From the IMG/VR virus record IMGVR_UViG_3300045988_150584: a DNA stretch of 64,000 nucleotides. One strand, given 5' to 3'. The DNA is from a virus. Positions 414 through 55,791 of the stretch are shown one piece after another. Both the position numbers and the translations under genes were made by a program. The notes beneath the pieces were generated by a model. It was not told where the DNA came from and did not search any database. It saw only the letters and a program-made list of their open reading frames with translations. Each line of letters opens with the position of its first letter. Positions within the stretch are counted from its first letter, which is position 1.

Positions 414-427
414 ATATTTTAATTGCA

Positions 428-490
428 GAGCGCCTTGTTTGGCTGATCAGTTAAAAGTTGATTCCATAAATAAGGTTGCTGTATGCGCTC
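428..490 (-). repeat. ACAGCAAY hairpin element (copy S9) upstream of tRNA-Leu(CAA)
   Basis: Sense (minus) strand reads GAGCGC-at-ACAGCAAC-...-GCGCTC. The stem differs in sequence from other copies but stays complementary. Confidence 0.5.
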
Positions 491-494
491 TTCG

Positions 495-1387: not shown

Positions 1388-1470
1388 GAGACGCAACATC
1401 ATTTACACTTGATAGATAAAATCCAGCTCATCTTTTATGTATAGAAATTTGAAGTTGCTGTAAGCGTCTC
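1388..1470 (-). repeat. ACAGCAAY hairpin element (copy S10) upstream of tRNA-Asn
   Basis: Sense strand reads GAGACGC-tt-ACAGCAAC-(~60 nt)-GCGTCTC. Confidence 0.5.
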
Positions 1471-1482
1471 TAACAACGGCAA

Positions 1483-1540
1483 GGCACTTATGTACTTTCT
1501 ATTATCCGCAAGAAAATCCTCCAAAGTTGCTGTGTGTGCC
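1483..1540 (-). repeat. ACAGCAAY hairpin element (copy S11)
   Basis: Sense strand reads GGCAC-ac-ACAGCAAC-...-GTGCC, immediately downstream of tRNA-Pro. Confidence 0.45.
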
Positions 1541-1546
1541 TTTTTA

Positions 1547-21030: not shown

Positions 21031-21074
21031 GCAAGCGGAAAATCTGGCGGGTAGATATAACAGGAGGATGAAAC

Positions 21075-21299: not shown

Positions 21300-21317
21300 A
21301 TAAATGGAGGTAACATT

Positions 21318-21734: not shown

Positions 21735-21737
21735 CTC

Positions 21738-39262: not shown

Positions 39263-39511
39263 GTGTATGAAATGGCTAACAAGCGAAACGACAGCGGTTA
39301 CTTCTGGGTTGATAAGGCTTTGACCTGTAACGGCTGTAAGTTCCTCAACTTTTACAAGTGCGGTTGCCGACGCAACCAAGAGCCTGGAAAGGTTCGTCCG
39401 CTTTCGTCCTATACCAATGGCGATGATTATGTCGCGGTTCTCAAGCCGACGGACTGCGATTATCAGAAAGAGCAGAAGCCGCAGGTCAAGGATGATAAGG
39501 AGAACGAGTAA
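39263..39511 (+). CDS. hypothetical protein
   Basis: AAGGAG RBS. 82 aa. Confidence 0.55.
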   Translation: MYEMANKRNDSGYFWVDKALTCNGCKFLNFYKCGCRRNQEPGKVRPLSSYTNGDDYVAVLKPTDCDYQKEQKPQVKDDKENE

Positions 39512-39681
39512 TGCCCATATTTGTTCTTCTCGTGTTTGTGGGCGCAGCTCTTTTGTGGCTGCTACTATCCTTTGGGTTTATCCCTATCGGTAAGTTATCC
39601 AACAGACTTCTGAAAGATGCTTCCGATGCAATGTCAAAGGATGAAAAAGATGAAAAAATTGAAGATAAGGAAGAAAAATAA
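39511..39681 (+). CDS. small membrane protein (56 aa)
   Basis: TAATG overlap. MPIFVLLVFVGAALLWLLLSFGFIPIG.. with an acidic tail. Below the track's size cutoff. Confidence 0.5.
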   Translation: MPIFVLLVFVGAALLWLLLSFGFIPIGKLSNRLLKDASDAMSKDEKDEKIEDKEEK

Positions 39682-39684
39682 CCT

Positions 39685-40584
39685 ATGAGAAAGAATGGTT
39701 TTGTTGGTGCTATCGTTTTGGCGATCATCATTTTTGGCGGCGTGATTCTCGGTTTTAGCTGCACATCGCGTGTCCCTACCGGTTATGTTGGAGTCGTTTA
39801 TAATATGAACGGCGGCGTTGATGGTGAGGTTCTGAGTCAGGGCTGGCATCTTGTAGCGCCTACAAAGAAAGTAACCACCTATTCTATCGGTTTGGAGCAG
39901 TCCTACCTTACAAGCGAAGAAAAGGGCGATTCTCCGAACGATGAGAGCTTTTCCATTCCGACGTCCGATGGCAAGACTGTCCGTGTAAATCTTGAGTTCT
40001 CTTACAGATTTGACGAAGAGCGTGTTGCTGAAACATTTACGACTTTCAAGGGCAAGTCTGGCGAACAGATCAAGGATACATTTATCAAGCCTAAGATTAT
40101 CGCTTGGACACAGGAAGTCTCCGCCAATTACCCAGTCACGGATATCTTCGGTGACAAGCGCACGGAGATCAACGCCGAGTTGGACACCTATTTGCGCGAC
40201 AAGTTTGATAAGTATGGCATTATTATCGACACGGTAAACTTCACCGATATCAGCGTAGACGATGAAACCGCCGCCGCGATTCAGAAGAAGGTCACTGCGC
40301 AGCAGGAACTTGAACTGGCTAATATCGAAGCTCAGACTGCCAAGGTTCAGGCCGAAAAGGATCGTCAGGTTGCTGAGATCAACGCTGAGAAGCAGATCAT
40401 TGATGCAAATGCAAAGGCTGAGGTAACGCGCATCGAAGCGGAGGCAGAAGCTCAGGCGAACCGTGAGATTGCAGCATCCCTTACCCCGAATCTGATTGAG
40501 AAGATCAAGTACGAGCGCTGGGACGGTGAGCTTCCTACCGTATCTGGTTCTGGAGCAATCGTCAGCATTGACGGCGTTGACTGA
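39685..40584 (+). CDS. SPFH/band-7 (stomatin-prohibitin-like) membrane protein
   Basis: N-terminal TM segment, then GYVGVVYNMNGGVDGEVLSQGWHLVAP.., followed by an Ala/Glu-rich coiled coil. Confidence 0.8.
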   Translation: MRKNGFVGAIVLAIIIFGGVILGFSCTSRVPTGYVGVVYNMNGGVDGEVLSQGWHLVAPTKKVTTYSIGLEQSYLTSEEKGDSPNDESFSIPTSDGKTVRVNLEFSYRFDEERVAETFTTFKGKSGEQIKDTFIKPKIIAWTQEVSANYPVTDIFGDKRTEINAELDTYLRDKFDKYGIIIDTVNFTDISVDDETAAAIQKKVTAQQELELANIEAQTAKVQAEKDRQVAEINAEKQIIDANAKAEVTRIEAEAEAQANREIAASLTPNLIEKIKYERWDGELPTVSGSGAIVSIDGVD

Positions 40585-40597
40585 TCGGAGGCCGTGA

Positions 40598-40882
40598 ATG
40601 AAGAATAAGGTTCGTGATATCCTTGCGGATAAGAAAGTGAAGCTACAAGAATTGACTGCACAGGCAGAAGCGGCGGTTGATCTTGTAACGAGAACAATTT
40701 CTGGTTTGGAGCTTGTCAACCAAGAAATTGATGATACGGTTGCAGAAATTGACAAGTATTCTGCTGAGCTTGCGTGTACGCGACAGGCGCTCAGCAAGAA
40801 TCGTACACACAATACTGCACTCATTGCAAATTTTGCAAAACTTCTGGAAGTTCCGGAAACAGAAAGTCAGCCAGTAGCCTAA
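40598..40882 (+). CDS. coiled-coil protein
   Basis: 94 aa. Confidence 0.5.
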   Translation: MKNKVRDILADKKVKLQELTAQAEAAVDLVTRTISGLELVNQEIDDTVAEIDKYSAELACTRQALSKNRTHNTALIANFAKLLEVPETESQPVA

Positions 40883-40894
40883 TAGCTACTTGTA

Positions 40895-40950
40895 ACGACG
40901 CGAACAGCAATTTTCTTACATATATTTGGGTTATATCGTACATGCGTCGT
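40895..40950 (+). repeat. ACAGCAAT hairpin element (copy S1)
   Basis: ACGACGC-ga-ACAGCAAT-(32 nt)-GCGTCGT. Confidence 0.5.
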
Positions 40951-40978
40951 GTGAAATAAAACTTGGAGGAATGATGTC

Positions 40979-41158
40979 GTGAAGCTGAAGTTCAATGTTG
41001 GTGATCGTGTTTTTGATAAGAAGTACGGTCATGGTGTGGTTCAGAGAGTTGATGCTGGAAACAGCGAGTTCCCGTATCTTATCTTCTATGAAGATGGTAC
41101 GAAGATCTGGTATAAGGCAAAGGGTGTAACTCTTGCCCCTGCGGAACAGCAGGATTAA
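40979..41158 (+). CDS. small protein (59 aa, GTG start)
   Basis: GGAGG-N9-GTG. VKLKFNVGDRVFDKKYGHGVVQRV.. is SH3/Tudor-like. Below the track's size cutoff. Confidence 0.45.
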   Translation: MKLKFNVGDRVFDKKYGHGVVQRVDAGNSEFPYLIFYEDGTKIWYKAKGVTLAPAEQQD

Positions 41159-41170
41159 GTAAGTTAAAAA

Positions 41171-41223
41171 GACGCAAACAGCAATCTAATAAAATCAAAC
41201 TTGAAATTTGACAGGTAAGCGTC
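41171..41223 (+). repeat. ACAGCAAT hairpin element (copy S2) upstream of tRNA-Ser
   Basis: GACGC-aa-ACAGCAAT-(33 nt)-GCGTC. Confidence 0.5.
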
Positions 41224-41237
41224 TTGTGGTGTGATAT

Positions 41238-41328
41238 GGAGTAGTAATCCTAATTGGTAAGGAAGTAGTTTGCTAAACTACCAGTAATCGGGAACGATGT
41301 GCAGGTTCGAGTCCTGTCTACTCTGCCA
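41238..41328 (+). tRNA. tRNA-Ser(GCU)
   Basis: Acceptor GGAGTAG/CTACTCT, anticodon arm GTAGT-TTGCTAA-ACTAC, long variable arm, T-arm GCAGG-TTCGAGT-CCTGT. CCA is encoded. Confidence 0.85.
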
Positions 41329-41490
41329 ACAAAAGCAAGTAGACAAAGAGAAAGTCTGTTCGCAATCGAAGCCGGCAATCATTGATTATTTTGTCCGCTT
41401 TCTTCACGGTAACTGCATGGCAGTAGTGCGAATACAAAACAGATTGGGTTCTGTTGTATGGGAGTGTGGCCTATACCTTGCTTGATATAT

Positions 41491-41577
41491 GCTGATGTGA
41501 TGGAACTGGCATACATGGGGGACTTAAAATCCCCCGCCGATTGTGGATTATGGGTTCGACTCCCATCATCAGCACCA
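41491..41577 (+). tRNA. tRNA-Leu(UAA)
   Basis: Acceptor GCTGATG/CATCAGC, anticodon arm GGGGA-CTTAAAA-TCCCC, long variable arm, T-loop GGGTTCGACTCCC. CCA is encoded. Confidence 0.85.
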
Positions 41578-41659
41578 GCCGTTGTGATGATCGGCTTTCA
41601 TCTCCTTCTTTGTGTGACGGTGGGACAGACCACTACTGCCGTGTAAGTGCGGCATAAAT

Positions 41660-41771
41660 GAGAGCGTCTGGATGACAGCTTTAAGGTGTATCGAACGGCG
41701 GACACCTACAGCAATGTTCTTTAAGAAAACTGGAATTTTTCTGCTTACGGGTTCGATTCCCGTAGCTCTCA
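41660..41771 (+). ncRNA. tRNA-like RNA P3 (good acceptor and T-arm, no canonical D or anticodon arms)
   Basis: Acceptor GAGAGCG/AGCTCTC and T-arm ACGGG-TTCGATT-CCCGT. The interior contains hairpin AGGTGT..ACACCT followed by ACAGCAATGTT, plus two CTTTAAG heptamers. Confidence 0.45.
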
Positions 41772-41841
41772 AGAGCCGTTAAATAATCTTCTCGAACTGG
41801 TGAGCAATTCACAACTTCTCTGGGAAGATGTAATAAGAAAT

Positions 41842-41952
41842 GCAGAGGTAGCTCAGTCGGTAGAGCATCAGACAAAAAATGTGCTAAGCATTAGCGCTAA
41901 CAGCAATGTTAAAGGAATCCGAGTGTCGGAGGTTCAAGTCCTCCCCTCTGCG
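41842..41952 (+). ncRNA. tRNA gene P4 with a ~38-nt insertion in the anticodon loop (body Phe/Lys-like)
   Basis: - Perfect acceptor GCAGAGG/CCTCTGC.
- Canonical D-arm TAGCTCAGTCGGTAGAGC and T-arm GGAGG-TTCAAGT-CCTCC.
- Anticodon stem TCAGA/TCCGA encloses CAAAAAATGTGCTAAGCATTAGCGCTAACAGCAATGTTAAAGGAA. Confidence 0.6.
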
Positions 41953-41959
41953 TCTATAT

Positions 41960-42031
41960 TCGTGCGTAACATCTGCGAAAGTACACCGTGGATGCGATTG
42001 GTATATGTCAGTTCGATTCTGACCGCACGAG
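41960..42031 (+). ncRNA. tRNA-like RNA P7 (normal length, non-canonical core)
   Basis: Acceptor TCGTGCG/CGCACGA and T-arm GTCAG-TTCGATT-CTGAC. I could not fold the 40-nt interior into D and anticodon arms. Confidence 0.4.
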
Positions 42032-42110
42032 CCTATGCGGTGTCTCACTGAAATAAATGTGGTGTGGGTGAGTAAAATCAGGGCTGTTGAAGAACTTGTA
42101 TCGTAGCGCT

Positions 42111-42180
42111 GCGGTGCATGGAACGTCTGGCAGAAGCAGTTTTACAATACAGAGCTGTTCGAGTCAGCTCCACCGCCCCA
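42111..42180 (+). ncRNA. tRNA-like RNA P8 (short, non-canonical core)
   Basis: Acceptor GCGGTGC/CCACCGC (6 of 7 paired), T-arm AGCTG-TTCGAGT-CAGCT, CCA encoded. No 5-7-5 anticodon arm was found. Confidence 0.4.
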
Positions 42181-42183
42181 AAT

Positions 42184-42298
42184 GCCAGGGTAGCTCAATC
42201 GGTAGAGCGCGTAATAACGCGACTTGTTAAGCCGCTTGCAGCAAATTTCTTTTGGTCTGTTAAACCCGTGGTTGCAGGTTCGATTCCTGCCCCTGGCT
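42184..42298 (+). ncRNA. tRNA gene P5 (Asn-like CTGTTAA loop) with a ~44-nt insertion between the D-arm and the anticodon region
   Basis: Acceptor GCCAGGG/CCCTGGC, D-arm TAGCTCAATCGGTAGAGC, T-arm GCAGG-TTCGATT-CCTGC. The insertion carries GCAGCAAAT, and only a 3-bp GGT/ACC stem flanks CTGTTAA. Confidence 0.5.
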
Positions 42299-42384
42299 CA
42301 ACGTGAATGACTGCTTAAACCATTCTAAACCGACACGACAAAAGGGCAGAAATGGTGACAGCTCGGAGAGACGAGCATCTATAT

Positions 42385-42502
42385 ACGGCAGTGGTGAAGC
42401 GGTAACACAGCAGCCATACAAATGCGAAAAGTGGATTTTCGCTAACAGCTATTTCACAATCCAAGCTGCCAATCGTAGGTTCGATTCCTACCTGCCGTTC
42501 CA
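42385..42502 (+). ncRNA. tRNA gene P6 with a ~43-nt insertion in the anticodon loop
   Basis: Perfect acceptor ACGGCAG/CTGCCGT. Anticodon stem GCAGC/GCTGC encloses CATACAAATGCGAAAAGTGGATTTTCGCTAACAGCTATTTCACAATCCAA. T-arm GTAGG-TTCGATT-CCTAC. CCA is encoded. Confidence 0.6.
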
Positions 42503-42562
42503 CGGGTATAGAGTTGACTTTTCCGTTCAAACAGCCCCTTATAAAGTTGGTAGTAACGGTAT

Positions 42563-42626
42563 GAGACGCACACAGCAATTTGTAAGTAAAGTATTTAGCC
42601 TGATAAGCGGATTTCTTTTGCGTCTC
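42563..42626 (+). repeat. ACAGCAAT hairpin element (copy S8) closing the RNA cluster
   Basis: GAGACGC-ac-ACAGCAAT-(40 nt)-GCGTCTC. Confidence 0.5.
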
Positions 42627-42691
42627 GCCCCTCCTTTAAGACACAGACAGCATCGAATGTGAAATGGTGTCTTGAAGGCTATTTCAAACAA

Positions 42692-42712
42692 AAAGAAATT
42701 AGTTAAACAATT
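42692..42712 (+). promoter_or_regulatory. class-B motif copy directly 5' of an RBS
   Basis: AAAGAAATTAGTTAAACAATT followed by CAAGGAGG. Confidence 0.5.
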
Positions 42713-42728
42713 CAAGGAGGAAGAAAGT

Positions 42729-44273
42729 ATGAATGGTTTTATGTCTGCTATGAAAAGCACTTTGAACGATGAGTTCAATGTTTCTGTTACCGAAAACGGT
42801 GCTGTTGGCTATCGTACTACCGGCAAGGAACTATTGGATCTCAACTTTGCCGTTGCATCTCTTCGTAAGGCATCTCCGAGCGATATTGCAAACCGCTTCG
42901 TCAGAGCGTTTTTCGAGGATAAGATTACGGCAATGAAATGGCTGTTCTTTGCGCGTGATGTTCGTGGTGGTCTTGGCGAGCGTCGTTTGTTCCGCATCGT
43001 GTTTCAGCGTATGGCGGAGGAAAATCCGGAATACATCATTCCGCTGATTTCCCTTGTGCCTGAGTATGGACGCTATGACGATTTGTGGTGTTTGCTCGAT
43101 ACAAAGCTTGCACCTAATGTGCTGAACATCATTGCGCAGCAGCTCCGCGATGACATTCAGAATTTGAGCGATGGCAATAGTATTTCTCTTCTCGCAAAGT
43201 GGCTTCCGTCTGCGAATGCTCATTCCGCTGACGCAAAGCGTTATGCTAAGCAGATCTACAAGTTTATGGGCATTTCTGAGCGCGACTACCGTAAGGTGCT
43301 GTCCAAGCTGCGTTCTAAGCTGGATATCGTGGAGAAGAAAATGTCCGAAAAGCGTTGGGATGAGATTGCGTATGAAGCTGTCCCGTCTCGTGCAAATCTG
43401 ATTTACAACTCCGCATTCCTTCGTAACGACGAAGATCGCCGCCGCGATTTCCTGTCCCGTTTGGAAAAGGGCGAAACGAAAATCAATGCGTCTACGCTTT
43501 TCCCGCATGACATTGTTGCAAAGTATAGCGATGGCTGGCGTGGCCTGAAGCCTACGGATAAAACACTGGAAGCTCTTTGGAACGCACTTCCCGATACCGT
43601 AAACGGATGCGGCAATACCATCGTCGTTGCGGATGGCAGCGGCAGTATGACCGTGAATGTCGGTGGCAGCAATGTTACCGCACTGGCTGTTGCAAATGCA
43701 CTTGCGATTTATTTCGCAGAGCGTTCCTCTGGTCAGTTCAAGGACAATTACATTACATTTTCTGAGCATCCTCAGCTCGTCGATTTGAGTAAGGGCAAGA
43801 ATCTCCGCGAGAAGATTCAGATTGCGCTTAAACACAGCGAGGTAGCAAACACAAATATCGAAGCGGTGTTTGACCTTATCTTGACTACGGCAAAGAAAAA
43901 CAACATGGGACAGAGCGATCTTCCTGCAAATATCCTTATTATCTCCGATATGGAGTTTGACTACTGCGCAACATCGAATGGTGGAAGCAGATATAATCGT
44001 GGTCGCGTTGATTCTCGTCTGTTTGACAAGATTGCAAAGCGCTATGAGGATGCTGGGTATAAACTGCCAAGGCTCGTGTTCTGGAACGTGAATAGCCGCA
44101 CGAATACCATCCCTATTAAGGAAAACGAGATGGGAGTTGCGCTTGTAAGCGGTTTTAGTCCGAACATCGCAAAGATGGTGATGAGTGGTCAAACTGATCC
44201 GTATGAGTGTCTGCTTGAAACGCTGAACTCTGATCGCTATAAGCCTATCGGTGACGCTCTGGAAAATCAGTAA
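42729..44273 (+). CDS. DUF2828-family protein with a vWA/MIDAS-like domain
   Basis: N-terminus VTENGAVGYRTTGKELLDLNF.., GRYDDLW, and VVADGSGSM (DxSxS MIDAS-like). 514 aa. Family recalled from memory of plant and phage DUF2828 proteins. Confidence 0.65.
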   Translation: MNGFMSAMKSTLNDEFNVSVTENGAVGYRTTGKELLDLNFAVASLRKASPSDIANRFVRAFFEDKITAMKWLFFARDVRGGLGERRLFRIVFQRMAEENPEYIIPLISLVPEYGRYDDLWCLLDTKLAPNVLNIIAQQLRDDIQNLSDGNSISLLAKWLPSANAHSADAKRYAKQIYKFMGISERDYRKVLSKLRSKLDIVEKKMSEKRWDEIAYEAVPSRANLIYNSAFLRNDEDRRRDFLSRLEKGETKINASTLFPHDIVAKYSDGWRGLKPTDKTLEALWNALPDTVNGCGNTIVVADGSGSMTVNVGGSNVTALAVANALAIYFAERSSGQFKDNYITFSEHPQLVDLSKGKNLREKIQIALKHSEVANTNIEAVFDLILTTAKKNNMGQSDLPANILIISDMEFDYCATSNGGSRYNRGRVDSRLFDKIAKRYEDAGYKLPRLVFWNVNSRTNTIPIKENEMGVALVSGFSPNIAKMVMSGQTDPYECLLETLNSDRYKPIGDALENQ

Positions 44274-44288
44274 AACTCCAACCCAAAA

Positions 44289-44323
44289 GTAAGCAAACCA
44301 CGAAATAAGTGGGTAGTTAAAGT
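44289..44323 (+). promoter_or_regulatory. class-A bipartite motif (copy 10)
   Basis: GTAAGCAAA-N14-GGTAGTTAAAGT, followed immediately by GC hairpin gggcggcgg-acac-ccgccgccc (44325-44346). Confidence 0.65.
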
Positions 44324-44371
44324 AGGGCGGCGGACACCCGCCGCCCTATCATTATATCCGGAGGTTCGTTT

Positions 44372-44656
44372 ATGGACTTGGTTACAAAATATATTATGAC
44401 GCATTCTGATGGTCGCCGTCATCCTATTTGCGGCTCTGCTATTGCTGCTGCATTTTGTGTGTCGAGCGTTGAAGTGAGACGGCTTGTAAACGCCGCCCGT
44501 ACAAATGGTGATCCGATTTGTTCCAGTGGGCGTGGATACTACATTGCAAAGGACAAAGATGAAATCCAGAAAACAATCGAGTCTCTACAAGGTCGCATCG
44601 CTGGCATGAGTAATGCTGTGTCCGGACTGCAGCAGTATATGGAAGGAGCATTCTGA
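44372..44656 (+). CDS. winged-helix-like DNA-binding protein (putative)
   Basis: 94 aa, ..GSAIAAAFCVSSVEVRRLVNAARTNGDPICSSGRGYYIA.. The assignment rests on pattern only. Confidence 0.4.
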   Translation: MDLVTKYIMTHSDGRRHPICGSAIAAAFCVSSVEVRRLVNAARTNGDPICSSGRGYYIAKDKDEIQKTIESLQGRIAGMSNAVSGLQQYMEGAF

Positions 44657-44967
44657 TGCCAGATGTTGTTATGACGAATCATAGTGTGAAGCGAACAAAA
44701 GAAAGAATTGGACTAAGCAAGAAAATCGCAGATAAGAACGCGCAGAGAGCGCTTGAATACGGTGTTACGCACTCTGAGGCAAAAGGTGGCTTATGTCGGT
44801 ATCTTGATAAACTGTATCTGTCGAATGGTAATGCAAATAATGTTCGCGTTTATCACAGATATGTATATCTCTTTCGTGGGAACACGCTTTTGACAATCAT
44901 TCCATTACCAAACAAATTCTATGCTCTGGCGGACAAACTTCAAAAGCAGAAAGGCGAAATAGAATGA
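44656..44967 (+). CDS. hypothetical protein
   Basis: 103 aa, with a start/stop overlap. Confidence 0.5.
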   Translation: MPDVVMTNHSVKRTKERIGLSKKIADKNAQRALEYGVTHSEAKGGLCRYLDKLYLSNGNANNVRVYHRYVYLFRGNTLLTIIPLPNKFYALADKLQKQKGEIE

Positions 44968-45920
44968 GAATTGTAAAAACACATACTGGAAAAATTTATG
45001 TTGATAAGGATAAGAAACTGGAATTTTTAACGGTTGGCGACTATGGCAAGGAAAACAATATTAAAGCAAGTTTTCTTGGTTTGAACAAAGAAATCAACGG
45101 TGTTCAACATCATACGGTTGACCTGGCGGATAAGTGGGTTGCTACTATCAGCACTCAGAAAGGTTGTCCGATGAATTGCCAGTTTTGTGATTGCCCGAAG
45201 TATGGATTTCACGGAAATGTATCTCGTGAGGAACTGGCTTATGAAATTGAGACAATTCTTGCAAACGAACGAGTAACACATACTAATCGTTTCAATGTTC
45301 ACTTTGCTCGCATGGGTGAGCCTACATTCAACGATGCCGTTCTTCCGTTTGCTGAATTTGATTTGAAGCCGCTGGTTAAGCGGTTTATTACGGCAGATAC
45401 AATTCATCCTGTTGTTTCAACTATGCTTCCGAAAGCAAATGCCAATTTGAAGTCATTCATCATGGAATGGTGTCGCATTAAGAACAGTGTGTACAGTGGA
45501 GAAGCTGGTCTGCAATTTAGCATCAATTCGACGAATCAGGCGCAGCGTAATGAACAGTTTAACGGAAAGAGCTTATCCTTATCAGAAATTTCAAGTCTCG
45601 CATCTAAGCTTCCTACGCCGGTCGGTAGAAAATACACATTGAATTTTGCGGTAACGGCTGACACGATTTTGGATGCGGTGGAGCTTGGGAAGCTGTTCGA
45701 TAAGGAAAAGTTTATCGTAAAAATTACGCCGATTCACCAGACAAATGCAGCCATTAAGAATGGATTTGATGTGACCACGGAATATACTGACTACGATGTT
45801 TACCGCAAGTTTGAAGATCCACTTGTTGCTGCTGGATGGGATGTCATTGTGTTCGTACCGAGCGAGGAAGAAGATAGCGACCGTATTACTTGCGGGAATG
45901 CCTTAATTTCAGATAAGTGA
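44964..45920 (+). CDS. RlmN/Cfr-like radical SAM RNA methyltransferase
   Basis: STQKGCPMNCQFCDCP (CxxxCxxC), FARMGEPTFN (MGMGEP-like), and C-terminal DRITCGNAL (second catalytic Cys, CGQL-like). Confidence 0.65.
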   Translation: MRIVKTHTGKIYVDKDKKLEFLTVGDYGKENNIKASFLGLNKEINGVQHHTVDLADKWVATISTQKGCPMNCQFCDCPKYGFHGNVSREELAYEIETILANERVTHTNRFNVHFARMGEPTFNDAVLPFAEFDLKPLVKRFITADTIHPVVSTMLPKANANLKSFIMEWCRIKNSVYSGEAGLQFSINSTNQAQRNEQFNGKSLSLSEISSLASKLPTPVGRKYTLNFAVTADTILDAVELGKLFDKEKFIVKITPIHQTNAAIKNGFDVTTEYTDYDVYRKFEDPLVAAGWDVIVFVPSEEEDSDRITCGNALISDK

Positions 45921-45928
45921 GGTGCAGG

Positions 45929-46336
45929 ATGTACAAGCACTACGAAAACATTACAAGAGAAGTTTTGGATACAATAAAGGTTGGAGATTTGGTCAGAGTA
46001 AACGATTGGACGAGTCCAATGCTTGTGAAAGCGGTATCTAAGAATTTCTTTGTGATGACTTGTAAGAAAGGCGAAGATACATATTACTCTGTGTGTTCAA
46101 AACTGCCGTGGGACGGTATTCGTCACAATGCTATGGTTGGCGGCATGTTCCATTGTGGATGTGATGATTGGATTTTCGGGACGCCGCTTGGAATTAGAGA
46201 CGAAAACATCTACCAGTTTAATGATCCGGAGTTAAATAGGTTGTATCTACAAGAGTTTGAGGATGGTAAAACGCACATTTCTGAACGAAATGGAGCTGCT
46301 ATCTATGATTTGTATGTAGAGCGCTGTGATGACTAA
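45929..46336 (+). CDS. hypothetical protein
   Basis: MYKHYENITREV.. after GAGGTG. Confidence 0.5.
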   Translation: MYKHYENITREVLDTIKVGDLVRVNDWTSPMLVKAVSKNFFVMTCKKGEDTYYSVCSKLPWDGIRHNAMVGGMFHCGCDDWIFGTPLGIRDENIYQFNDPELNRLYLQEFEDGKTHISERNGAAIYDLYVERCDD

Positions 46337-46350
46337 GGAGGTTATGCAAG

Positions 46351-46626
46351 ATGGTTGTAAGTCTACGCGAAATAGTGATGTCGCATGAAAAGATTTATTC
46401 GCTGCTCTATTCTCCGTGTAGAATCGAGAGTGACCCGATTGAAAAGCAGATTGTAGAAATTAGTACGAAGTCTCTGCGTTGGTCGGATGATGGGACGATG
46501 TTTGTCTATGTCTGGGGTTGGCCTGGGCCGGACTTTAACAGATATTCTGCAAAGACATACGGAAAAGGCTGGGCATTTACAAAACAGGAAATCATTGATG
46601 CCTGGGAGAGCGAGAATAGGAAGTAG
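46351..46626 (+). CDS. hypothetical protein
   Basis: AAGGAGG RBS. 91 aa. The stop TAG lies inside a class-B motif. Confidence 0.5.
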   Translation: MVVSLREIVMSHEKIYSLLYSPCRIESDPIEKQIVEISTKSLRWSDDGTMFVYVWGWPGPDFNRYSAKTYGKGWAFTKQEIIDAWESENRK

Positions 46627-46637
46627 CAAATCAATCC
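46616..46637 (+). promoter_or_regulatory. class-B motif copy overlapping a stop codon
   Basis: ATAGGAAGTAGCAAATCAATCC. Confidence 0.4.
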
Positions 46638-46729
46638 TATGTACAGTTCATTTCTTAAAATAATTCACTGAAAAACACAGAGTTTTTCGTTGCAAGCAAG
46701 CGCAACTAATGATTGGAGTGTAATTTGCC

Positions 46730-47110
46730 ATGCCCCTTAAAACACCTGAATCACAGCGACGAATGGCTGAAATGCAGCACATGAGAGACTGTGGATTTAC
46801 TTTGCAGCAAATCGGAGATCAATATGGAATAAGCCGAGAGCGAGTTCGTCAGATTGTAAATAACATTCACAAGAAAAAGCGTACTTGTGGTGTGAAAAAT
46901 ATCTGCTATCCAAATTTCAAAAAATGGGCGCTTGATAATGGGTATTCCACTTTAACAAAGCTTGCTAATGATATGGATATGTGTTCATCTCTTGTTAGAA
47001 GTCTTCTGATCAAGGGTGAACCCCCTACAAAGCGCTCCATTAGGAAGATAACTGAATTCACTGGAATGTCTGCGGATGAAGTATTTTATCTACCGGATGT
47101 TGCAGCGTAA
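46730..47110 (+). CDS. sigma70 region-4-type HTH protein
   Basis: GFTLQQIGDQYGISRERVRQIVNNI. Confidence 0.6.
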   Translation: MPLKTPESQRRMAEMQHMRDCGFTLQQIGDQYGISRERVRQIVNNIHKKKRTCGVKNICYPNFKKWALDNGYSTLTKLANDMDMCSSLVRSLLIKGEPPTKRSIRKITEFTGMSADEVFYLPDVAA

Positions 47111-47116
47111 AGATTG

Positions 47117-47151
47117 GTAAGCAAATTGTTATTACGATGGGTAGTTATAAC
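47117..47151 (+). promoter_or_regulatory. class-A bipartite motif (copy 11)
   Basis: GTAAGCAAA-N14-GGTAGTTATAAC. Confidence 0.65.
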
Positions 47152-47168
47152 GAAAGGGGTGTGGTTGC

Positions 47169-47480
47169 ATGAATGGTCTTGGTGAGGCTGTGATGATAAC
47201 ATGGGCTGAATATGGTCTAAAAATCGAAAATACGAGTGAAACAGCAGAATCACTTGTGATTTATGTTTCTGTCCCAGAGCATAGTTACAAAAGAAATGCC
47301 AGAGGCTCTGAAATGGCTGCTATGGATCTTGCAAAACGATTTAAGACCGTAATGACGGAGATGGGCGTTAAGCGTTTGACCGTTAAAGCCCGCGTTCGTG
47401 CTGGTGAATACTGGACGAAAGAAATGGCTGATAGCGCCAATATCGAGATGCGAAAAAACATCTTTGGAAGTCAATATTAA
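47169..47480 (+). CDS. hypothetical protein
   Basis: 103 aa. Confidence 0.5.
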   Translation: MNGLGEAVMITWAEYGLKIENTSETAESLVIYVSVPEHSYKRNARGSEMAAMDLAKRFKTVMTEMGVKRLTVKARVRAGEYWTKEMADSANIEMRKNIFGSQY

Positions 47481-47494
47481 GGAGGGTGTAATAG

Positions 47495-54050: not shown

Positions 54051-54872
54051 ATGAGTGACAGAGAAAAGATTATGAAGCGGCTTTCTGAACACCTCGAAGC
54101 AGTAAGAGACAAACACCCTGAGTGGGTTGGTATTTTTCTTCAAGGTTCACAAAACTACAACTTAGATTATGAGGGCAGCGATATTGATTCCAAGCTGATC
54201 GTCCTCCCTTCGTTTGAAGATTTTGTTTTGAACAAGAGACCGTATAGCTACACACACATCATGGAAAACGATGAACATGTAGATGTTAAGGATATTCGTC
54301 TGATGCTCGATTGCTTCAAAAAGCAGAATGTAAATTTTGTTGAGATTCTTTTTACCCCGTACCGTATCTTGAATCCAAAGTACGAAGCTTTGTTTCAGCC
54401 GATTCTTGATATTGCAGAGAGAGTCGGTCGATATAACAACTATGCTGCATTGAACTGCATGGTCGGAATGGCGCTTGAAAAGCAAAAGGCATTGTGCCAC
54501 CCATATCCTGCAACAAAAGACAAGATTGATAAGTACGGTTTCGACAGCAAACAGTATCATCATATCGAGCGTCTTTATGAGTTCATGCAGCGTTGGCTTA
54601 ATGGCGAGCCATATCGTGATTGCCTCATTTCTAAGCAGAGAGAACGTCTTAGAGAAATCAAGCTTTATATTAACTGCGATCTTACAACGGCGCAGGCCAA
54701 TTCGGACAGAATTGTATCTGAGATGAAGTCAATCAAGGACACTTATATGCAGCAGAATCCTGTCGTGATAGATCGTGAGGTTGATTCAGTTTTCAATAAG
54801 GTTTTGCTTGATTTATTTAAGTTTAATTTCCAGTGTGAGATTGGTAACGGCTCGCCTAATAAAAAGGAGTAA
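54051..54872 (+). CDS. Pol-beta-superfamily nucleotidyltransferase
   Basis: GIFLQGSQNYNLDYEGSDIDSKLIV (GS..x..DxD). Confidence 0.6.
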   Translation: MSDREKIMKRLSEHLEAVRDKHPEWVGIFLQGSQNYNLDYEGSDIDSKLIVLPSFEDFVLNKRPYSYTHIMENDEHVDVKDIRLMLDCFKKQNVNFVEILFTPYRILNPKYEALFQPILDIAERVGRYNNYAALNCMVGMALEKQKALCHPYPATKDKIDKYGFDSKQYHHIERLYEFMQRWLNGEPYRDCLISKQRERLREIKLYINCDLTTAQANSDRIVSEMKSIKDTYMQQNPVVIDREVDSVFNKVLLDLFKFNFQCEIGNGSPNKKE

Positions 54873-54876
54873 GAAT

Positions 54877-55791
54877 ATGTCTATCTTTTTTATGATGGTA
54901 GGTCTTCCGTACAGCGGAAAATCTGTTTATGCGGAGGGGCTGCGAGAGAAGTTCGGTGCAGAGATTCATTCCAGCGATGCAATTCGAGCAGAGATCCTTG
55001 GAGATGTACAGGATCAGACAAACAATCAGATTGTTTTTGATACTCTGCACAAGCGAGTAATTTCTGATTTGTCTGCTGGTAAAAATGTAATTTACGATGC
55101 GACGAATATCAATTACAAGCGGCGTATTGATATGCTGAATCGCTTGTCGAAGGTGAAGTGTCAGAAAGTCTGTATCGTTATGGCGACACCTTTTCACGAA
55201 TGTGAAGAGCGTAGCAAGCATCGTGAGCGGGTTGTCCCACACGAGGTTCTTGTGCGTATGTATAAGAATTTCTGGCTTCCGTATTGGTATGAGGGGTGGG
55301 ACGCAATCGAGCTTGTTTATCCAGATAATTTTGAGCCGTACAGTGTAAGTGATTTATTTAATCGTGATGGAGGGCTGAATAGCTTTGAGCAGGACAATCC
55401 ACATCATACTTTCACGGTTGGGCATCATTGTATCGCTACATATGGGCTTGTTTCTGATGGAAGCACAGAGCTTCAGGAGGCTGCTCTTCTTCATGATATC
55501 GGAAAGCCTTTCACAAAAAGCTTTGTGAATAGCAAGGGCGAAACAACAGAGATTGCTCATTATTATGAACATCAGCATGTTTCCGCCTATGATAGCTTAT
55601 TCTACTCAAATCCGAGTTTGAATCGGCTGTATATCGCAAATATCATCCAGTGGCATATGCGTCCGTTTGAGCTTGAACGAGACCCCCATTCTGGCAAAGC
55701 GCAGAAGCGGTTCAAAAAGCTTGTCGGCAATAAGCTTTATTCAGATGTGATGAAGCTTCATGCCGCTGATATCGAAGCAAAAGGAACTTGA
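54877..55791 (+). CDS. polynucleotide kinase (P-loop) fused to an HD phosphohydrolase
   Basis: MMVGLPYSGKS (Walker A), YDATNINYKRR, and C-terminal HH..LLHDIGKP (HD). Confidence 0.75.
   Translation: MSIFFMMVGLPYSGKSVYAEGLREKFGAEIHSSDAIRAEILGDVQDQTNNQIVFDTLHKRVISDLSAGKNVIYDATNINYKRRIDMLNRLSKVKCQKVCIVMATPFHECEERSKHRERVVPHEVLVRMYKNFWLPYWYEGWDAIELVYPDNFEPYSVSDLFNRDGGLNSFEQDNPHHTFTVGHHCIATYGLVSDGSTELQEAALLHDIGKPFTKSFVNSKGETTEIAHYYEHQHVSAYDSLFYSNPSLNRLYIANIIQWHMRPFELERDPHSGKAQKRFKKLVGNKLYSDVMKLHAADIEAKGT

What the first reader, a model, noticed from the sequence alone, without database searches (positions are those of the whole stretch)
41660..42502. Six tRNA-like genes with aberrant or interrupted anticodon regions next to two normal tRNAs
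**Interrupted tRNAs.** P4 (41842-41952), P5 (42184-42298) and P6 (42385-42502) have perfect acceptor stems and canonical T-arms, and P4 and P5 have canonical D-arms. Each carries a 38-44-nt insertion.
- In P4 and P6 the insertion is inside the anticodon loop.
- In P5 it lies between the D-arm and the anticodon region.
- All three insertions contain an (A/G)CAGC(A/T)A(A)T core.

**Other tRNA-like genes.** P3, P7 and P8 keep an acceptor/T-arm minihelix, but I could not fold a 5-7-5 anticodon arm.

**Why this is unusual.** The insertions are far too short for group I introns, and bacteria and phages are not known to splice short protein-dependent tRNA introns.

**Possible explanations:**
- a new class of phage tRNA intron healed by the ligase/kinase cassette encoded 10 kb downstream;
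- a small mobile element that targets tRNA genes;
- deliberate tRNA mimics, either decoys for anticodon nucleases or Y-RNA-like partners of the adjacent vWA protein.
Basis: partly seen in the sequence, partly recalled or inferred. Interest (0 to 1): 0.85.

Follow-up and report, generated by a model that had tools for sequence, protein, structure and literature searches.

The report
Phage tRNA mimics carrying a Ro-protein handle
The "interrupted tRNAs" are real and conserved: they are tRNA look-alikes that all carry one conserved RNA module, which sits beside a Ro60-like protein gene in very diverse phages, so they are most likely that protein's partner RNAs (a new kind of Y RNA) and not tRNAs with introns.

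Summary
Rfam's tRNA model matches P4, P5 and P6 full length with 44-55-nt inserts, and ARAGORN misses all three.

All three share one module: a 7-bp helix (H1) followed by single-stranded UAACAGCAAY. The same module also forms stand-alone ~60-nt hairpins ("T1") that contain an anticodon-arm mimic. Three T1 copies flank the cluster and three more lie in the window's other tRNA array.

P3-P7 belong to five orthologous families conserved in phages whose neighbouring protein is only 62-77% identical. Covariation supports every helix, including anticodon stems that close around the insert.

The neighbouring "vWA" gene (DUF2828/DUF7788) models as a Ro60 (TROVE+vWA) ring. ACAGCAA is about 70-fold enriched just upstream of it in 70 loci. 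The module also sits beside this gene in 10 of 12 sampled cultured phage lineages, including Felixounavirus, Listeria and Mycobacterium phages.

No Rfam family matches the module. In P4- and P6-type RNAs, no excision point restores a normal anticodon loop.

Best reading (about 0.55): these are Y-RNA-like tRNA mimics, topologically un-permuted YrlA analogues, bound by the Ro-like protein. Binding itself is not shown. I rate this a new variant of a known kind.

The parts
40895..40950 (+). Stand-alone module hairpin T1-a. H1 is ACGACGC/GCGTCGT, followed by GAACAGCAAU, then the arm AUAUA UUUGGGU UAUAU (Pro-like loop).
   Evidence: CM R1 scores 42.9 bits. Parsed.
41169..41225 (+). Stand-alone module hairpin T1-b. 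H1 is AAGACGC/GCGTCTT, followed by AAACAGCAAU, then the arm UCAAA CUUGAAA UUUGA. It ends 12 nt before tRNA-Ser.
   Evidence: R1 scores 54.7 bits. The family shows covariation.
41238..41328 (+). Ordinary tRNA-Ser(GCU) with encoded CCA.
   Evidence: ARAGORN and Rfam, 49.1 bits.
41491..41577 (+). Ordinary tRNA-Leu(UAA) with encoded CCA.
   Evidence: ARAGORN and Rfam, 52.9 bits.
41660..41771 (+). P3 (group A). It has an acceptor stem and T arm but no D arm. Capped H1 is 41685-41689/41702-41706, the UACAGCAAU motif is 41707-41715, and the 5-7-5 arm is 41725-41741.
   Evidence: Orthologues found in about 30 loci. Weak R1 hit, 21.7 bits.
41842..41952 (+). P4 (group B). A tRNA-Phe-like body whose anticodon stem (41868-41872/41918-41922) closes around the junction, capped H1 (41881-41887/41891-41897) and the UAACAGCAAU motif (41898-41907).
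   Evidence: Rfam tRNA 52.5 bits. Anticodon stem is 90.8% paired with 5 of 5 compensatory pairs.
41959..42033 (+). P7 (group E). It has an 8-bp acceptor stem, UAAC, an 8-bp central hairpin and a T arm, but no ACAGCAA.
   Evidence: nhmmer homologues in 14 loci. RNAalifold finds 9 compensatory pairs.
42037..42183 (+). P8. A T-arm/acceptor-like remnant, probably a degenerate recent copy.
   Evidence: 144-bp indel among 95-98% identical relatives. Fold z-score -0.74. No distant homologue.
42184..42298 (+). P5 (group C). A complete tRNA with a CUGUUAA loop at 42257-42263. A 42-nt insert (42212-42253) splits the 5' strand of the anticodon stem. Capped H1 is 42219-42225/42229-42235 and the UUGCAGCAAAU motif is 42236-42246.
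   Evidence: Rfam 48.4 bits. The split stem is 100% paired and covaries. L011 has an orthologue.
42299..42384 (+). Conserved structured spacer that precedes P6 in distant loci.
   Evidence: nhmmer hits in 10 loci. RNAalifold finds 4 compensatory pairs.
42385..42502 (+). P6 (group D). A tRNA-Gly-like body with encoded CCA. The anticodon stem (42410-42414/42465-42469) closes around capped H1 (42424-42430/42436-42442), the UAACAGCUAU motif (42443-42452) and the tail ..AAUCCAA.
   Evidence: Rfam 48.6 bits. 98.4% paired, with 22 of 27 pairs compensatory.
42562..42627 (+). Stand-alone module hairpin T1-c, about 100 nt before the Ro-like gene. The arm is UUAGC CUGAUAA GCGGA.
   Evidence: R1 scores 46.6 bits.
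42729..44273 (+). Ro60-like protein (DUF2828 + DUF7788/vWA), the proposed protein partner.
   Evidence: Pfam. PHROG 850, 'RNA-binding protein'. AF2 model. Foldseek top 11 hits are all Ro60/TROVE.
39685..40584 (+). SPFH/Band-7 protein upstream of the RNA array. It accompanies the array in this clade only.
   Evidence: Pfam Band_7, E = 2e-26. Present in 37 of 86 related loci. Absent from the 12 cultured-phage loci.
52491..53930 (+). RNA ligase, part of the RNA-repair context.
   Evidence: PHROG 968, E = 9e-64. Weak Pfam RNA_ligase match.
54775..55791 (+). Polynucleotide-kinase-like P-loop kinase fused to an HD phosphohydrolase.
   Evidence: Pfam AAA_33, E = 3e-18, and HD. PHROG 505.
427..491 (-). 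T1 hairpin in the main tRNA array, between two tRNA-Leu genes. The arm loop is CUUUUAA.
   Evidence: R1 scores 36.0 bits.
1388..1470 (-). T1-like hairpin in the main tRNA array, with a longer internal loop.
   Evidence: R1 scores 29.7 bits.
1481..1542 (-). T1 hairpin in the main tRNA array, between tRNA-Asn and tRNA-Pro.
   Evidence: R1 scores 36.5 bits.

Best explanation
The cluster is an array of tRNA-mimicking non-coding RNAs that share one protein-binding handle.

**The handle.** It is a helix (H1) whose end is flanked on one strand by ..AAAU and on the other by UAACAGCAAY. This forms an asymmetric internal loop that leads into an anticodon stem.

**Proposed mechanism (inferred).** The Ro60-like ring protein encoded immediately downstream (DUF2828 + vWA) binds this handle. 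That would make these RNAs its Y RNAs.

**Where the handle is grafted:**
- onto mini-hairpins that display a real-looking anticodon arm (T1);
- onto a D-armless tRNA (P3);
- into the anticodon stem of a complete tRNA (P5);
- in place of the anticodon loop of tRNA bodies (P4, P6).

P4 and P6 have the same topology as the known bacterial Y RNA YrlA, in which a tRNA-like L-shape has its anticodon end running into the Ro-binding module. The difference is that here the tRNA is not circularly permuted.

**Shown here:**
- the structures and their conservation;
- the fold of the protein model;
- the genomic linkage between module and gene.

**Inferred:**
- binding of the module by the protein;
- the downstream role, which is most likely tethering the Ro-like protein to tRNA-handling or tRNA-attacking factors during infection (tRNA surveillance or repair, or titration of anticodon nucleases). 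The neighbouring RNA ligase and kinase, or RtcB in relatives, fit this.
For: **1. Structures.**
- The tRNA model matches P4, P5 and P6.
- Covariation supports all helices, including H1 and the anticodon stems that close around the insert.
- The T1 covariance model R1 finds 98 hits. H1 is 99.5% paired with 7 of 7 compensatory pairs. The arm is 75.6% paired with 5 of 5.

**2. Protein.** The AF2 model (pLDDT 73) gives Ro60/TROVE structures as its top 11 PDB matches. These include Thermus phage phiLo Ro60, Xenopus Ro and Deinococcus Rsr (E = 1e-8 to 1e-6, 500-563 aligned columns).

**3. Linkage in related loci.** In 70 loci, ACAGCAA occurs 196, 83, 63 and 27 times in the four 500-nt bins upstream of the gene on its strand. 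The background is about 2-3 per bin.

**4. Depth of the linkage.**
- The module sits next to the gene in 10 of 12 sampled cultured phage lineages: Mycobacterium Faith1, Listeria LMTA-148, Enterococcus VRE9_1, E. coli momo, two Staphylococcus phages, Vibrio, Fusobacterium, Campylobacter and Aeromonas. The Ro-like proteins there are only 33-40% identical.
- In an exact-pattern scan of IMG/VR, all 30 motif matches that lay in a locus holding a Ro-like gene were on the gene's strand.
- Of 56 loci with a CM-validated T1, 51 contain a Ro-like gene or tRNAs. Of 52 chance pattern matches, 2 do.

**5. Precedent.**
- YrlA RNAs are tRNA mimics encoded within 4 kb of Ro60 on the same strand, in more than 250 bacteria and 22 phages (PMC4201824).
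- YrlA lacks the anticodon loop, and its anticodon stem runs into the Ro-binding module. [quoted passage not shown]
- A phage Ro60 binds two stem-bulge-stem RNAs encoded upstream of its gene (PMC12135203).

**6. RNA-repair neighbours recur.** There is an RNA ligase and a kinase-HD gene in the window, RtcB in the Listeria phage, and an RNA ligase adjacent in a Klebsiella jumbo phage.
Against: - No binding data exist.
- The conserved motif does not resemble the known Ro-binding motifs (GGUCCGA, GNCGAA). The Rfam YrlA model does not match (20.4 bits against a gathering score of 69, E = 0.28; no hit).
- T1 copies also lie in the main tRNA array, about 40 kb from the Ro-like gene. About 40% of validated T1 loci show tRNAs but no Ro-like gene within the fetched flanks. 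The primary association could therefore be with tRNA arrays, next to which the Ro-like gene also tends to sit.
- Co-occurrence at whole-genome level was not tested.
- Two of the 12 cultured lineages (Klebsiella jumbo phage, Lak) show no clear module.
- The protein model has only moderate confidence, and TM-scores are 0.37-0.50.
- P7 carries no ACAGCAA motif.
Confidence: 0.55

Rival explanations
1. The module is a cis-acting punctuation or processing signal of phage tRNA arrays, or an operator in the leader of the Ro-like mRNA. Its role would be to guide cleavage, folding or stability of the polycistronic tRNA transcript. The Ro-like gene would be linked to it only because it also lives in tRNA arrays.
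For: - T1 hairpins sit between ordinary tRNAs in the window's other array and in large arrays of other contigs.
- They typically lie about 10 nt from a tRNA.
- The 5-kb region scanned around the array (39500-44500) has no more promoter- or terminator-like sites than shuffled sequence.
- In Vibrio and Fusobacterium phages a short version lies 27-68 nt before the Ro-like start codon.
Against: - A processing signal does not explain why the module is grafted into otherwise complete tRNA bodies, where it destroys the anticodon loop.
- It also does not explain why stand-alone copies carry covarying 5-bp/7-nt arms with genuine anticodon-loop sequences.
- In mycobacteriophage Faith1 the modules flank the Ro-like gene although no tRNA is annotated or detected within 4 kb.
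Confidence: 0.2
2. The inserts are a new class of short, protein-dependent tRNA introns. A phage or host endonuclease would excise them, and the phage RNA ligase and kinase would rejoin the halves.
For: - P5-type RNAs would be perfect tRNAs once the 42-nt bulge is removed. The split anticodon stem covaries across the insert.
- An RNA ligase and a kinase-HD gene lie 10 kb downstream.
- One P6-type orthologue (L044) would regain CUGCCAA if cut between nt 32 and 33.
Against: - No excision point restores Y32-U33...R37 in more than 1 of 18 P4-type or 8 of 30 P6-type RNAs.
- The same module occurs as at least 98 stand-alone hairpins with nothing to splice.
- The insert sequence and helix are under strong purifying selection, while the would-be anticodon drifts within one scaffold: GUU, GCU, UUU, UGU and UCU.
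- The phage already has a normal tRNA-Asn.
- No Rfam intron family matched at E up to 10.
- By inspection, I saw no archaeal-type bulge-helix-bulge at the insert borders.
Confidence: 0.1
3. The RNAs are free-standing decoys or inhibitors for host anticodon nucleases or other tRNA-targeting defences. They would act without the Ro-like protein.
For: - T1 arms copy authentic anticodon loops of tRNAs that known anticodon nucleases cut, such as Lys-UUU and the GUN family (my own knowledge of nuclease targets). The observed loops are CUUUUAA, CUGUUAA, CUGUAAA, CUUGAAA, CUGCAAA and CUGAUAA.
- The anticodon varies among orthologues, as expected in an arms race.
Against: - This does not explain the invariant ACAGCAA handle or its linkage to the Ro-like gene.
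- P4 and P6 types have no anticodon loop to be cut.
Confidence: 0.1
4. The insert is a small selfish mobile element that targets tRNA genes, leaving decaying pseudo-tRNAs.
For: - P8 behaves like a recent gain or loss, as a 144-bp indel among near-identical phages.
- The module is found in several different tRNA scaffolds.
Against: - The inserts occupy orthologous positions in the same gene order across phages with 62-77% protein identity.
- Compensatory changes maintain H1, the acceptor, T and anticodon stems.
- I noticed no target-site duplications or terminal repeats while reading the inserts.
- The motif is conserved from Actinobacteria phages to Proteobacteria phages.
Confidence: 0.04

Closest known systems
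YrlA (Y RNA-like A, Rfam RF02553), partner of bacterial and phage Ro60/Rsr
   Same: - It is encoded beside a Ro60-type gene on the same strand.
- It contains a tRNA-like L-shape with T arm, D arm and acceptor stem.
- It lacks an anticodon loop, and its anticodon stem continues into the protein-binding module.
- Conservation is concentrated on one strand next to a helix.

Sources: PMC4201824, bioRxiv 10.1101/312249.
   Different: - YrlA is circularly permuted: its acceptor stem is closed by a loop and its ends lie in the Ro-binding stem. P4 and P6 keep natural tRNA ends and close the binding helix with a loop.
- The motif is UAACAGCAAY, not GNCGAA.
- The Rfam model does not match.
- The partner protein belongs to the DUF2828 subfamily, not Pfam TROVE.
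- There are 6-10 paralogous RNAs per locus in several topologies.
Thermus phage phiLo Ro60 with Yrl1 and Yrl2 (PDB 9L5Y, 9KOP)
   Same: - It is a phage-encoded Ro60 ring.
- It binds two stem-bulge-stem RNAs encoded just upstream of its gene (PMC12135203).
- These structures are among the best structural matches of the window protein.
   Different: - Yrl1 and Yrl2 use a CGAA motif and are not described as tRNA bodies or as carrying anticodon arms.
- Sequence identity in the structural alignments to the window protein is about 16%.
Metazoan and Deinococcus Y RNAs
   Same: [quoted passage not shown] This is the layout of the stand-alone T1 hairpins.
   Different: - The conserved sequence is different.
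- T1 RNAs are shorter (50-70 nt).
- In T1 the second stem imitates an anticodon arm.
Protein-spliced tRNA introns of archaea and eukaryotes, and group I introns in bacterial tRNA anticodon loops
   Same: The insert lies in or next to the anticodon loop or stem of a tRNA gene.
   Different: - I saw no bulge-helix-bulge by inspection.
- The inserts (42-78 nt) are far below group I intron size, and no Rfam intron family matched.
- Excision would not restore a normal loop in most P4- and P6-type RNAs.
Armless mitochondrial tRNAs of nematodes and mites
   Same: T1 hairpins have a 7-bp terminal stem, a 5-bp/7-nt anticodon arm and two short connectors in place of the D and T arms. Their overall size is similar.
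   Different: - This is a resemblance of shape only, drawn from my own knowledge.
- T1 has an invariant ACAGCAA connector, no consistently encoded CCA, and a bacterial-phage setting.

Membership tests
Canonical tRNA (Rfam RF00005) | Cloverleaf covariance-model score above the gathering threshold (29 bits) | tested here: met
   P4 scores 52.5, P6 48.6 and P5 48.4 bits, all over model positions 1-71. P3, P7 and P8 are not detected even at E up to 10.
Canonical tRNA (Rfam RF00005) | 7-nt anticodon loop (Y32 U33 NNN R37 N38) closed by a continuous 5-bp stem | tested here: not met
   - P4 and P6: the loop is replaced by 45-78 nt across the family, and no excision restores it.
- P5: the loop is present, but the stem's 5' strand is interrupted by 42 nt.
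- ARAGORN rejects all three.
YrlA / Y RNA-like (Rfam RF02553) | Match to the YrlA covariance model | tested here: not met
   The best hit scores 20.4 bits against a gathering score of 69 (E = 0.28). It spans the junction of P8 and P5, so it reflects only the T-arm-then-D-arm order. There were no hits in relatives or cultured phages.
YrlA / Y RNA-like (Rfam RF02553) | Encoded within 4 kb of a Ro60-type gene on the same strand | tested here: met
   - In the window, the whole array lies 0.1-1.8 kb upstream of the gene on the same strand.
- The same holds in 70 related loci and in 10 of 12 cultured lineages.
YrlA / Y RNA-like (Rfam RF02553) | tRNA-like domain whose anticodon stem leads into the protein-binding module, with no anticodon loop | tested here: met
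   This holds for the P4 and P6 types.
YrlA / Y RNA-like (Rfam RF02553) | Ro-binding motif GNCGAA(N)G near the 5' end, with the acceptor stem closed by a loop (permuted) | tested here: not met
   The conserved motif is UAACAGCAAY, and the acceptor stems are open.
YrlA / Y RNA-like (Rfam RF02553) | Physical binding to the Ro60 orthologue | not testable with these tools
   This needs RIP/CLIP or EMSA.
Ro60 / TROVE protein family (for the neighbouring gene) | HEAT-repeat ring followed by a vWA domain | tested here: met
   In the Foldseek PDB search the top 11 hits are all Ro60/TROVE, at probability 1.00 and aligned over nearly the full length. The caveat is that the model has pLDDT 73 and TM-scores of 0.37-0.50.
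Ro60 / TROVE protein family (for the neighbouring gene) | Match to Pfam TROVE, or sequence match to solved Ro60 structures | tested here: not met
   Pfam reports DUF2828, DUF7788 and VWA_2 only. phmmer against PDB sequences finds nothing below E = 0.9.
Group I intron in tRNA | Catalytic core of at least ~200 nt and a match to the Rfam intron model | tested here: not met
   The inserts are 42-78 nt. No intron family matched at E up to 10.
Archaeal/eukaryal-type tRNA intron | Bulge-helix-bulge at the exon-intron borders, and excision that yields a canonical anticodon loop | tested here: not met
   Restoration of a canonical loop fails in most orthologues. The bulge-helix-bulge was checked by eye only.

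The most novel reading that the evidence does not exclude
These are genuine tRNA genes interrupted by a previously unknown class of short, protein-dependent introns. The H1-ACAGCAA module would be the handle by which the Ro60-like ring holds the precursor while an endonuclease and the phage RNA ligase and kinase cut and rejoin it. That would be the first protein-assisted tRNA splicing system in bacteria or phages.

A related exotic variant is that insert-bearing tRNA-Gly-like and tRNA-Asn-like RNAs are aminoacylated and used outside the ribosome.
Probability: 0.07. Interest if true: 0.95.

Novelty: new variant of a known kind. Interest (0 to 1): 0.78.

Why it matters
**Why it would matter if the binding inference holds:**
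- It would define the RNA partners of a large, uncharacterised branch of the Ro60 family. DUF2828 has more than 8000 homologues in the protein search and is present in 711 deposited phage genomes.
- Those genomes include lab-tractable phages: E. coli and Salmonella Felixounavirus, Listeria Pecentumvirus and mycobacteriophage cluster L.
- It would show that Y-RNA-type tRNA mimicry has been reinvented with a different motif and an un-permuted topology.
- It would link Ro-type RNPs to phage tRNA arrays and RNA-repair enzymes. That is relevant to the conflict between phage tRNAs and host anticodon nucleases.

**Practical consequences:**
- These RNAs are invisible to ARAGORN.
- In at least two deposited phage records checked, a module copy lies under an annotated small hypothetical ORF.
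- A covariance model for the module would improve phage annotation.

Tried and rejected
1. **Known RNA families.** An Rfam scan of 41100-42750 at E up to 10 returned only tRNA and chance-level hits. The weak YrlA hit comes from the T arm of P8 being followed by the D arm of P5.
2. **ACAGCAA as a phage promoter.** Rejected for three reasons:
   - The motif is confined to RNA arrays and is absent from the other intergenic regions of the 64-kb window.
   - It always accompanies a covarying helix.
   - It is conserved in phages of Actinobacteria, Firmicutes and Proteobacteria, whose promoters differ.
3. **T1 hairpins as terminators.** No U-tract follows them, and the scan found no more terminator-like sites than in shuffled sequence.
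4. **GNRA-tetraloop hairpin (UAACA GCAA UGUUA) as the conserved unit.** It forms only in P4, not in P3, P5, P6 or T1 (by inspection).
5. **Pairing of the ..AAAU connector with AUUU after the motif.** It is not consistent among the three window T1 copies (by inspection).
6. **Band-7/SPFH as the universal partner.** This lead came from my memory of Burroughs & Aravind 2016, which I could not retrieve. Band-7 is within 4 kb in 37 of 86 related loci but absent from all 12 cultured-phage loci, although 10 of them carry the module.
7. **Intron excision.**
8. **Close relatives.** At 95-98% identity they are too similar to inform on structure, so more distant loci had to be fetched.
9. **Literature.** Searches for DUF2828, PF11443 and "Ro-like" returned nothing on these RNAs.
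Full report

Yes. Rfam's tRNA covariance model matches three of the six candidates over its full length and above threshold:
- P4, 41842-41952: 52.5 bits.
- P6, 42385-42499: 48.6 bits.
- P5, 42184-42298: 48.4 bits.

In each, 44-55 nt sit where the anticodon region should be. ARAGORN reports only the two ordinary neighbours, tRNA-Ser(GCU) and tRNA-Leu(UAA). The shared (A/G)CAGC(A/T)A core is present in P3, P4, P5 and P6. No deposited phage in INPHARED matches this region beyond short tRNA-sized stretches.

**2. Anatomy of the shared module**

Reading the seven copies together with those in relatives shows one recurring unit:
- A 7-9-bp helix, H1. One strand ends in ..CRC and is followed by single-stranded UAACAGCAAY plus about 10 more nucleotides.
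- The other H1 strand begins GYG.. and is preceded by ..AAAU.
- Together these form an asymmetric internal loop that leads into a 5-bp stem.

The unit appears in several topologies:
- **T1, stand-alone hairpins of about 60 nt.** H1 is formed by the two ends. The 5-bp stem is capped by a 7-nt loop that reads like a true anticodon loop: CUUGAAA, CUUUUAA, CUGCAAA, CUGUUAA, CUGAUAA, CUGUAAA or UUUGGGU. Window copies are at 40895-40950, 41169-41225 and 42562-42627.
- **P3 type (group A).** It has an acceptor stem and T arm. The D arm is replaced by extra sequence, a capped H1 and the motif.
- **P5 type (group C).** It is a complete cloverleaf with a CUGUUAA loop. The capped H1 and motif form a 42-nt bulge inside the 5' strand of the anticodon stem, between nt 28 and 29.
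- **P4 and P6 types (groups B and D).** These are tRNA-Phe-like and tRNA-Gly-like bodies. Their anticodon stem is the module's 5-bp stem, and their anticodon loop is replaced by connector, capped H1, motif and tail.

Relative to T1, the tRNA-embedded versions are circular permutations of the same junction.

**3. Conservation and covariation**

I fetched 17 loci with the downstream protein itself, then 80 more with an alignment of its homologues. Seventy of the latter were analysed further (L027-L097 excluding L042). They are distinct phage contigs whose copy of the protein is 62-77% identical to the window's. The families recur there in the same order.

| RNA family | Alignment | Cells paired | Compensatory pairs | Key helices |
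|---|---|---|---|---|
| P5 type | MAFFT, 21 sequences | 96.9% | 20 of 28 | both halves of the split anticodon stem 100%; H1 91% with 6 of 7 |
| P6 type | MAFFT | 98.4% | 22 of 27 | anticodon stem closing 49-78 nt is 100% paired |
| P4 type | MAFFT, body and anticodon stem only | 97.8% | 14 of 21 | anticodon stem 5 of 5 |
| T1 | fitted to model R1, 98 hits at E < 1e-3 in 44 sources | 90.6% | 12 of 12 | H1 99.5% with 7 of 7; arm 75.6% with 5 of 5 |

- Every measure beat all 500 shuffles, except 'further pair types' for the P4 type (122/500). Sliding the partners drops pairing to about 30-57%.
- The T1 alignment was fitted to the model, so its counts lean towards the structure. The three tRNA-type alignments were not fitted.
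- H1 was left out of the P4-type count because MAFFT aligned it poorly.
- P7 is a fifth conserved tRNA-like family with 9 compensatory pairs.
- P8 exists only in near-identical relatives, as a 144-bp indel. It folds no better than shuffled sequence.
- The "spacers" are also conserved in distant loci. The whole 1.8 kb is therefore a dense array of structured RNAs.
- The scan found no more promoter-like or terminator-like sites than in shuffled sequence.

**4. The neighbouring protein is a Ro60 relative**

- The gene at 42729-44273 matches Pfam DUF2828, DUF7788 and weakly VWA_2. It also matches PHROG 850, "RNA-binding protein".
- Sequence search against PDB chains finds nothing.
- An AlphaFold2 model built from 42 homologues has pLDDT 73. 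Its 11 best PDB matches are all Ro60/TROVE structures: Thermus phage phiLo Ro60, Xenopus and human Ro60, and Deinococcus Rsr. They score E = 1e-8 to 1e-6 with 500-563 aligned columns. Isolated vWA domains come only after them.
Some mycobacteriophage records already call it "Ro-like RNA binding protein".

**5. Linkage between module and protein**

- In the 70 loci, ACAGCAA on the gene's strand occurs 196, 83, 63 and 27 times in the four 500-nt bins upstream of the start codon. Elsewhere and on the other strand the count is about 2-3 per bin.
- The protein family is in 711 deposited phage genomes. I pulled 12 lineages, in which the Ro-like proteins are 25-40% identical to the window's.
- A helix-plus-ACAGCAA module lies 0.03-2.5 kb from the gene on the same strand in 10 of the 12: Enterococcus VRE9_1, Listeria LMTA-148, Mycobacterium Faith1, E. 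coli momo (Felixounavirus), Staphylococcus BE22 and Alsa_3, a Vibrio T4-like phage, Fusobacterium phiKSUM, Campylobacter QDYZ and Aeromonas AsFcp_4.
- It is unclear in a Klebsiella jumbo phage and in Lak-B4.
- In Enterococcus VRE9_1 and Staphylococcus BE22, a module copy lies under an annotated small hypothetical ORF.
- Conservation of a 7-nt motif plus a covarying helix across phages of Actinobacteria, Firmicutes, Fusobacteria and Proteobacteria argues against a promoter. It argues for recognition by a conserved phage factor.

**6. Specificity control and a caveat**

An exact-pattern scan of IMG/VR was followed by the covariance model, then tblastn and ARAGORN.

| Loci | With Ro-like gene | With 3 or more tRNAs | With 1-2 tRNAs | Neither |
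|---|---|---|---|---|
| 56 with a CM-validated T1 | 22 | 22 | 7 | 5 |
| 52 pattern-only (chance) | 1 | 0 | 1 | 50 |

All 30 motif matches that lay in a locus holding a Ro-like gene were on the gene's strand.

The caveat is that T1 copies also live inside ordinary tRNA arrays far from the Ro-like gene.
- Three lie in the window's own main array: 427-491, 1388-1470 and 1481-1542, all on the - strand.
- The Ro-like gene itself usually sits in or beside a tRNA array.
- Several of the "tRNA-only" loci come from contigs that do carry the gene elsewhere (compare the contig names).
- Co-occurrence at whole-genome level could not be tested here.
- Band-7/SPFH accompanies the array in this clade (37 of 86 loci) but not in the cultured lineages. 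It is therefore not the universal partner.

**7. How it most likely works**

Known biology supplies a close template.
- Bacterial and phage Ro60 genes are flanked, within 4 kb on the same strand, by Y RNAs whose effector domain mimics tRNA (PMC4201824).
- In YrlA the tRNA-like L-shape lacks an anticodon loop, and its anticodon stem runs into the Ro60-binding helix. Only one strand of that helix is conserved (bioRxiv 10.1101/312249).
- A phage Ro60 binds two stem-bulge-stem RNAs encoded upstream of its gene (PMC12135203).

P4 and P6 have exactly the YrlA topology, except that the tRNA is not permuted and the binding helix is capped. T1 has the classical Y-RNA stem-loop-stem layout.

I therefore propose that H1-UAACAGCAAY is the binding site of the DUF2828 Ro-like protein. 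The attached tRNA parts would be effector modules that bring tRNA-recognising factors to the ring, or titrate them.

- **Shown:** the structures, their conservation, the protein fold and the linkage.
- **Inferred:** binding and function.
- **Consistent context:** RNA ligase and kinase-HD genes in the window, RtcB in the Listeria phage, and an adjacent RNA ligase in a Klebsiella jumbo phage. This fits tRNA damage and repair, as in the Salmonella rsr-yrlBA-rtcBA operon (my own knowledge; compare PMC7790460, which I did not read).

**8. Rivals**

- **Short introns.** This is attractive for the P5 type, which would be a perfect tRNA once the bulge is removed. Four observations count against it:
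  - No excision point restores a canonical loop in more than 1 of 18 P4-type or 8 of 30 P6-type RNAs.
  - The module exists without any tRNA body.
  - The insert is more conserved than the would-be anticodon, which varies (GUU, GCU, UUU, UGU, UCU) within one scaffold.
  - Discriminator bases vary among the GUU-bearing copies.
- **Array punctuation or an mRNA-leader operator.** This remains plausible and is partly compatible with the main model.
- **Selfish insertion.** Orthologous positions and compensatory evolution contradict it.
- **Stand-alone nuclease decoys.** This does not explain the invariant handle.

**9. Comparison with the known, and novelty**

- The RNAs are not members of Rfam YrlA (model score not met, different motif, not permuted).
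- They are not functional canonical tRNAs (anticodon loop absent or anticodon stem interrupted).
- They are not group I or archaeal-type introns.
- They work like Y RNAs of the YrlA type.
- No Rfam 15 family matches the module.
- Literature searches for the protein family or for "Ro-like" phage RNAs returned nothing on these RNAs.
- Burroughs & Aravind (NAR 2016) mention, from my memory of the abstract, Rot/TROVE and SPFH scaffolds with cognate Y RNAs and "a novel tRNA-like molecule". I could not retrieve that paper, so some overlap with prior observation cannot be excluded.
- I rate this a new variant of a known kind: a new Y-RNA-like family for a divergent Ro60 branch, with unusual un-permuted and mini-hairpin topologies.

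**10. Verdict**

The most exciting reading, bacterial protein-dependent tRNA introns, is unlikely at about 0.07. The best-supported reading, at about 0.55, is a widespread and previously unmodelled phage Ro-like RNP whose RNAs are tRNA mimics. It is directly testable in standard phage-host systems. Interest is 0.78.

Noticed in passing
window 3288-3895 (-); L099 2469-3020: A full-length ROOL RNA (400 bits) sits inside the window's main tRNA array. A ROOL-like match (90 bits, just under the 99.1 gathering score) lies about 1 kb upstream of the Ro-like gene in Listeria phage LMTA-148. ROOL, tRNA arrays and the Ro-like gene may therefore travel together.
   Followed up: no
window 1685-2100 (-): A phage-encoded tmRNA lies in the middle of the tRNA array. 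Rfam scores it 86.7 bits and ARAGORN reads the tag as AVDGCLNDALLVWVSICGNKESG.
   Followed up: no
window 427-491, 1388-1470, 1481-1542 (-): Three further T1 module hairpins lie between ordinary tRNAs in the other tRNA array, about 40 kb from the Ro-like gene. The module is therefore not confined to the gene's immediate neighbourhood.
   Followed up: partly
window 41329-41490, 41578-41659, 42299-42384: The "spacers" between the tRNA-like genes are themselves conserved in distant loci. The third has a predicted structure with 4 compensatory pairs and contains GGUGACAGC. These may be additional ncRNAs or leaders.
   Followed up: partly
L013-L015 3623-3698 (L016 2872-2947, L017 2870-2945); L167 5335-5405; L210 11646-11720; L215 6717-6787: Suppressor-type tRNAs with a CUA anticodon (ARAGORN calls them "Pyl") occur in arrays that carry T1 hairpins. 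In L013 the T1 lies immediately upstream of one. This hints at TAG recoding in some of these phages.
   Followed up: no
L162 10941-11012; L167 8384-8456; L215 4933-5005; L011 10614-10686: ARAGORN reports tRNAs with 8-nt or otherwise irregular anticodon loops ("???" with aaaa, ggta or aa). These could be frameshift-suppressor-like tRNAs or further aberrant tRNA mimics.
   Followed up: no
L013-L015 4671-4757: An 87-nt "tRNA-Cys(GCA)" with a long variable arm (class II shape) lies directly upstream of the distant Ro-like gene. This is an odd combination of anticodon and scaffold.
   Followed up: no
L098 3844-3960; L102 5516-5605: In the deposited Enterococcus VRE9_1 and Staphylococcus BE22 records, small "hypothetical protein" CDSs are annotated over T1-type module hairpins. 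These are probably false ORFs.
   Followed up: partly
window 44964-48574 and 55788-56648: Matches to radical-SAM (weak, below the Pfam cut-off), SPASM and PAPS-reductase/PP-loop domains lie downstream of the Ro-like gene, near the RNA ligase and kinase. They may be a nucleoside- or RNA-modification cassette.
   Followed up: no
window ~16000-22000: GC skew changes sign near 17-18 kb, next to a 4-kb stretch of raised GC (52-53% against about 42-45%). This may be a strand-switch or origin-like boundary of the phage genome.
   Followed up: no
L104 2436-3644; L099 6852-8062: An RNA ligase gene lies directly upstream of the Ro-like gene in Klebsiella jumbo phage fENko-Kae01. RtcB and a "tRNA-splicing ligase" gene lie 1.3 kb downstream of it in Listeria phage LMTA-148. 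The Ro-like gene and RNA ligases are thus repeatedly linked.
   Followed up: partly
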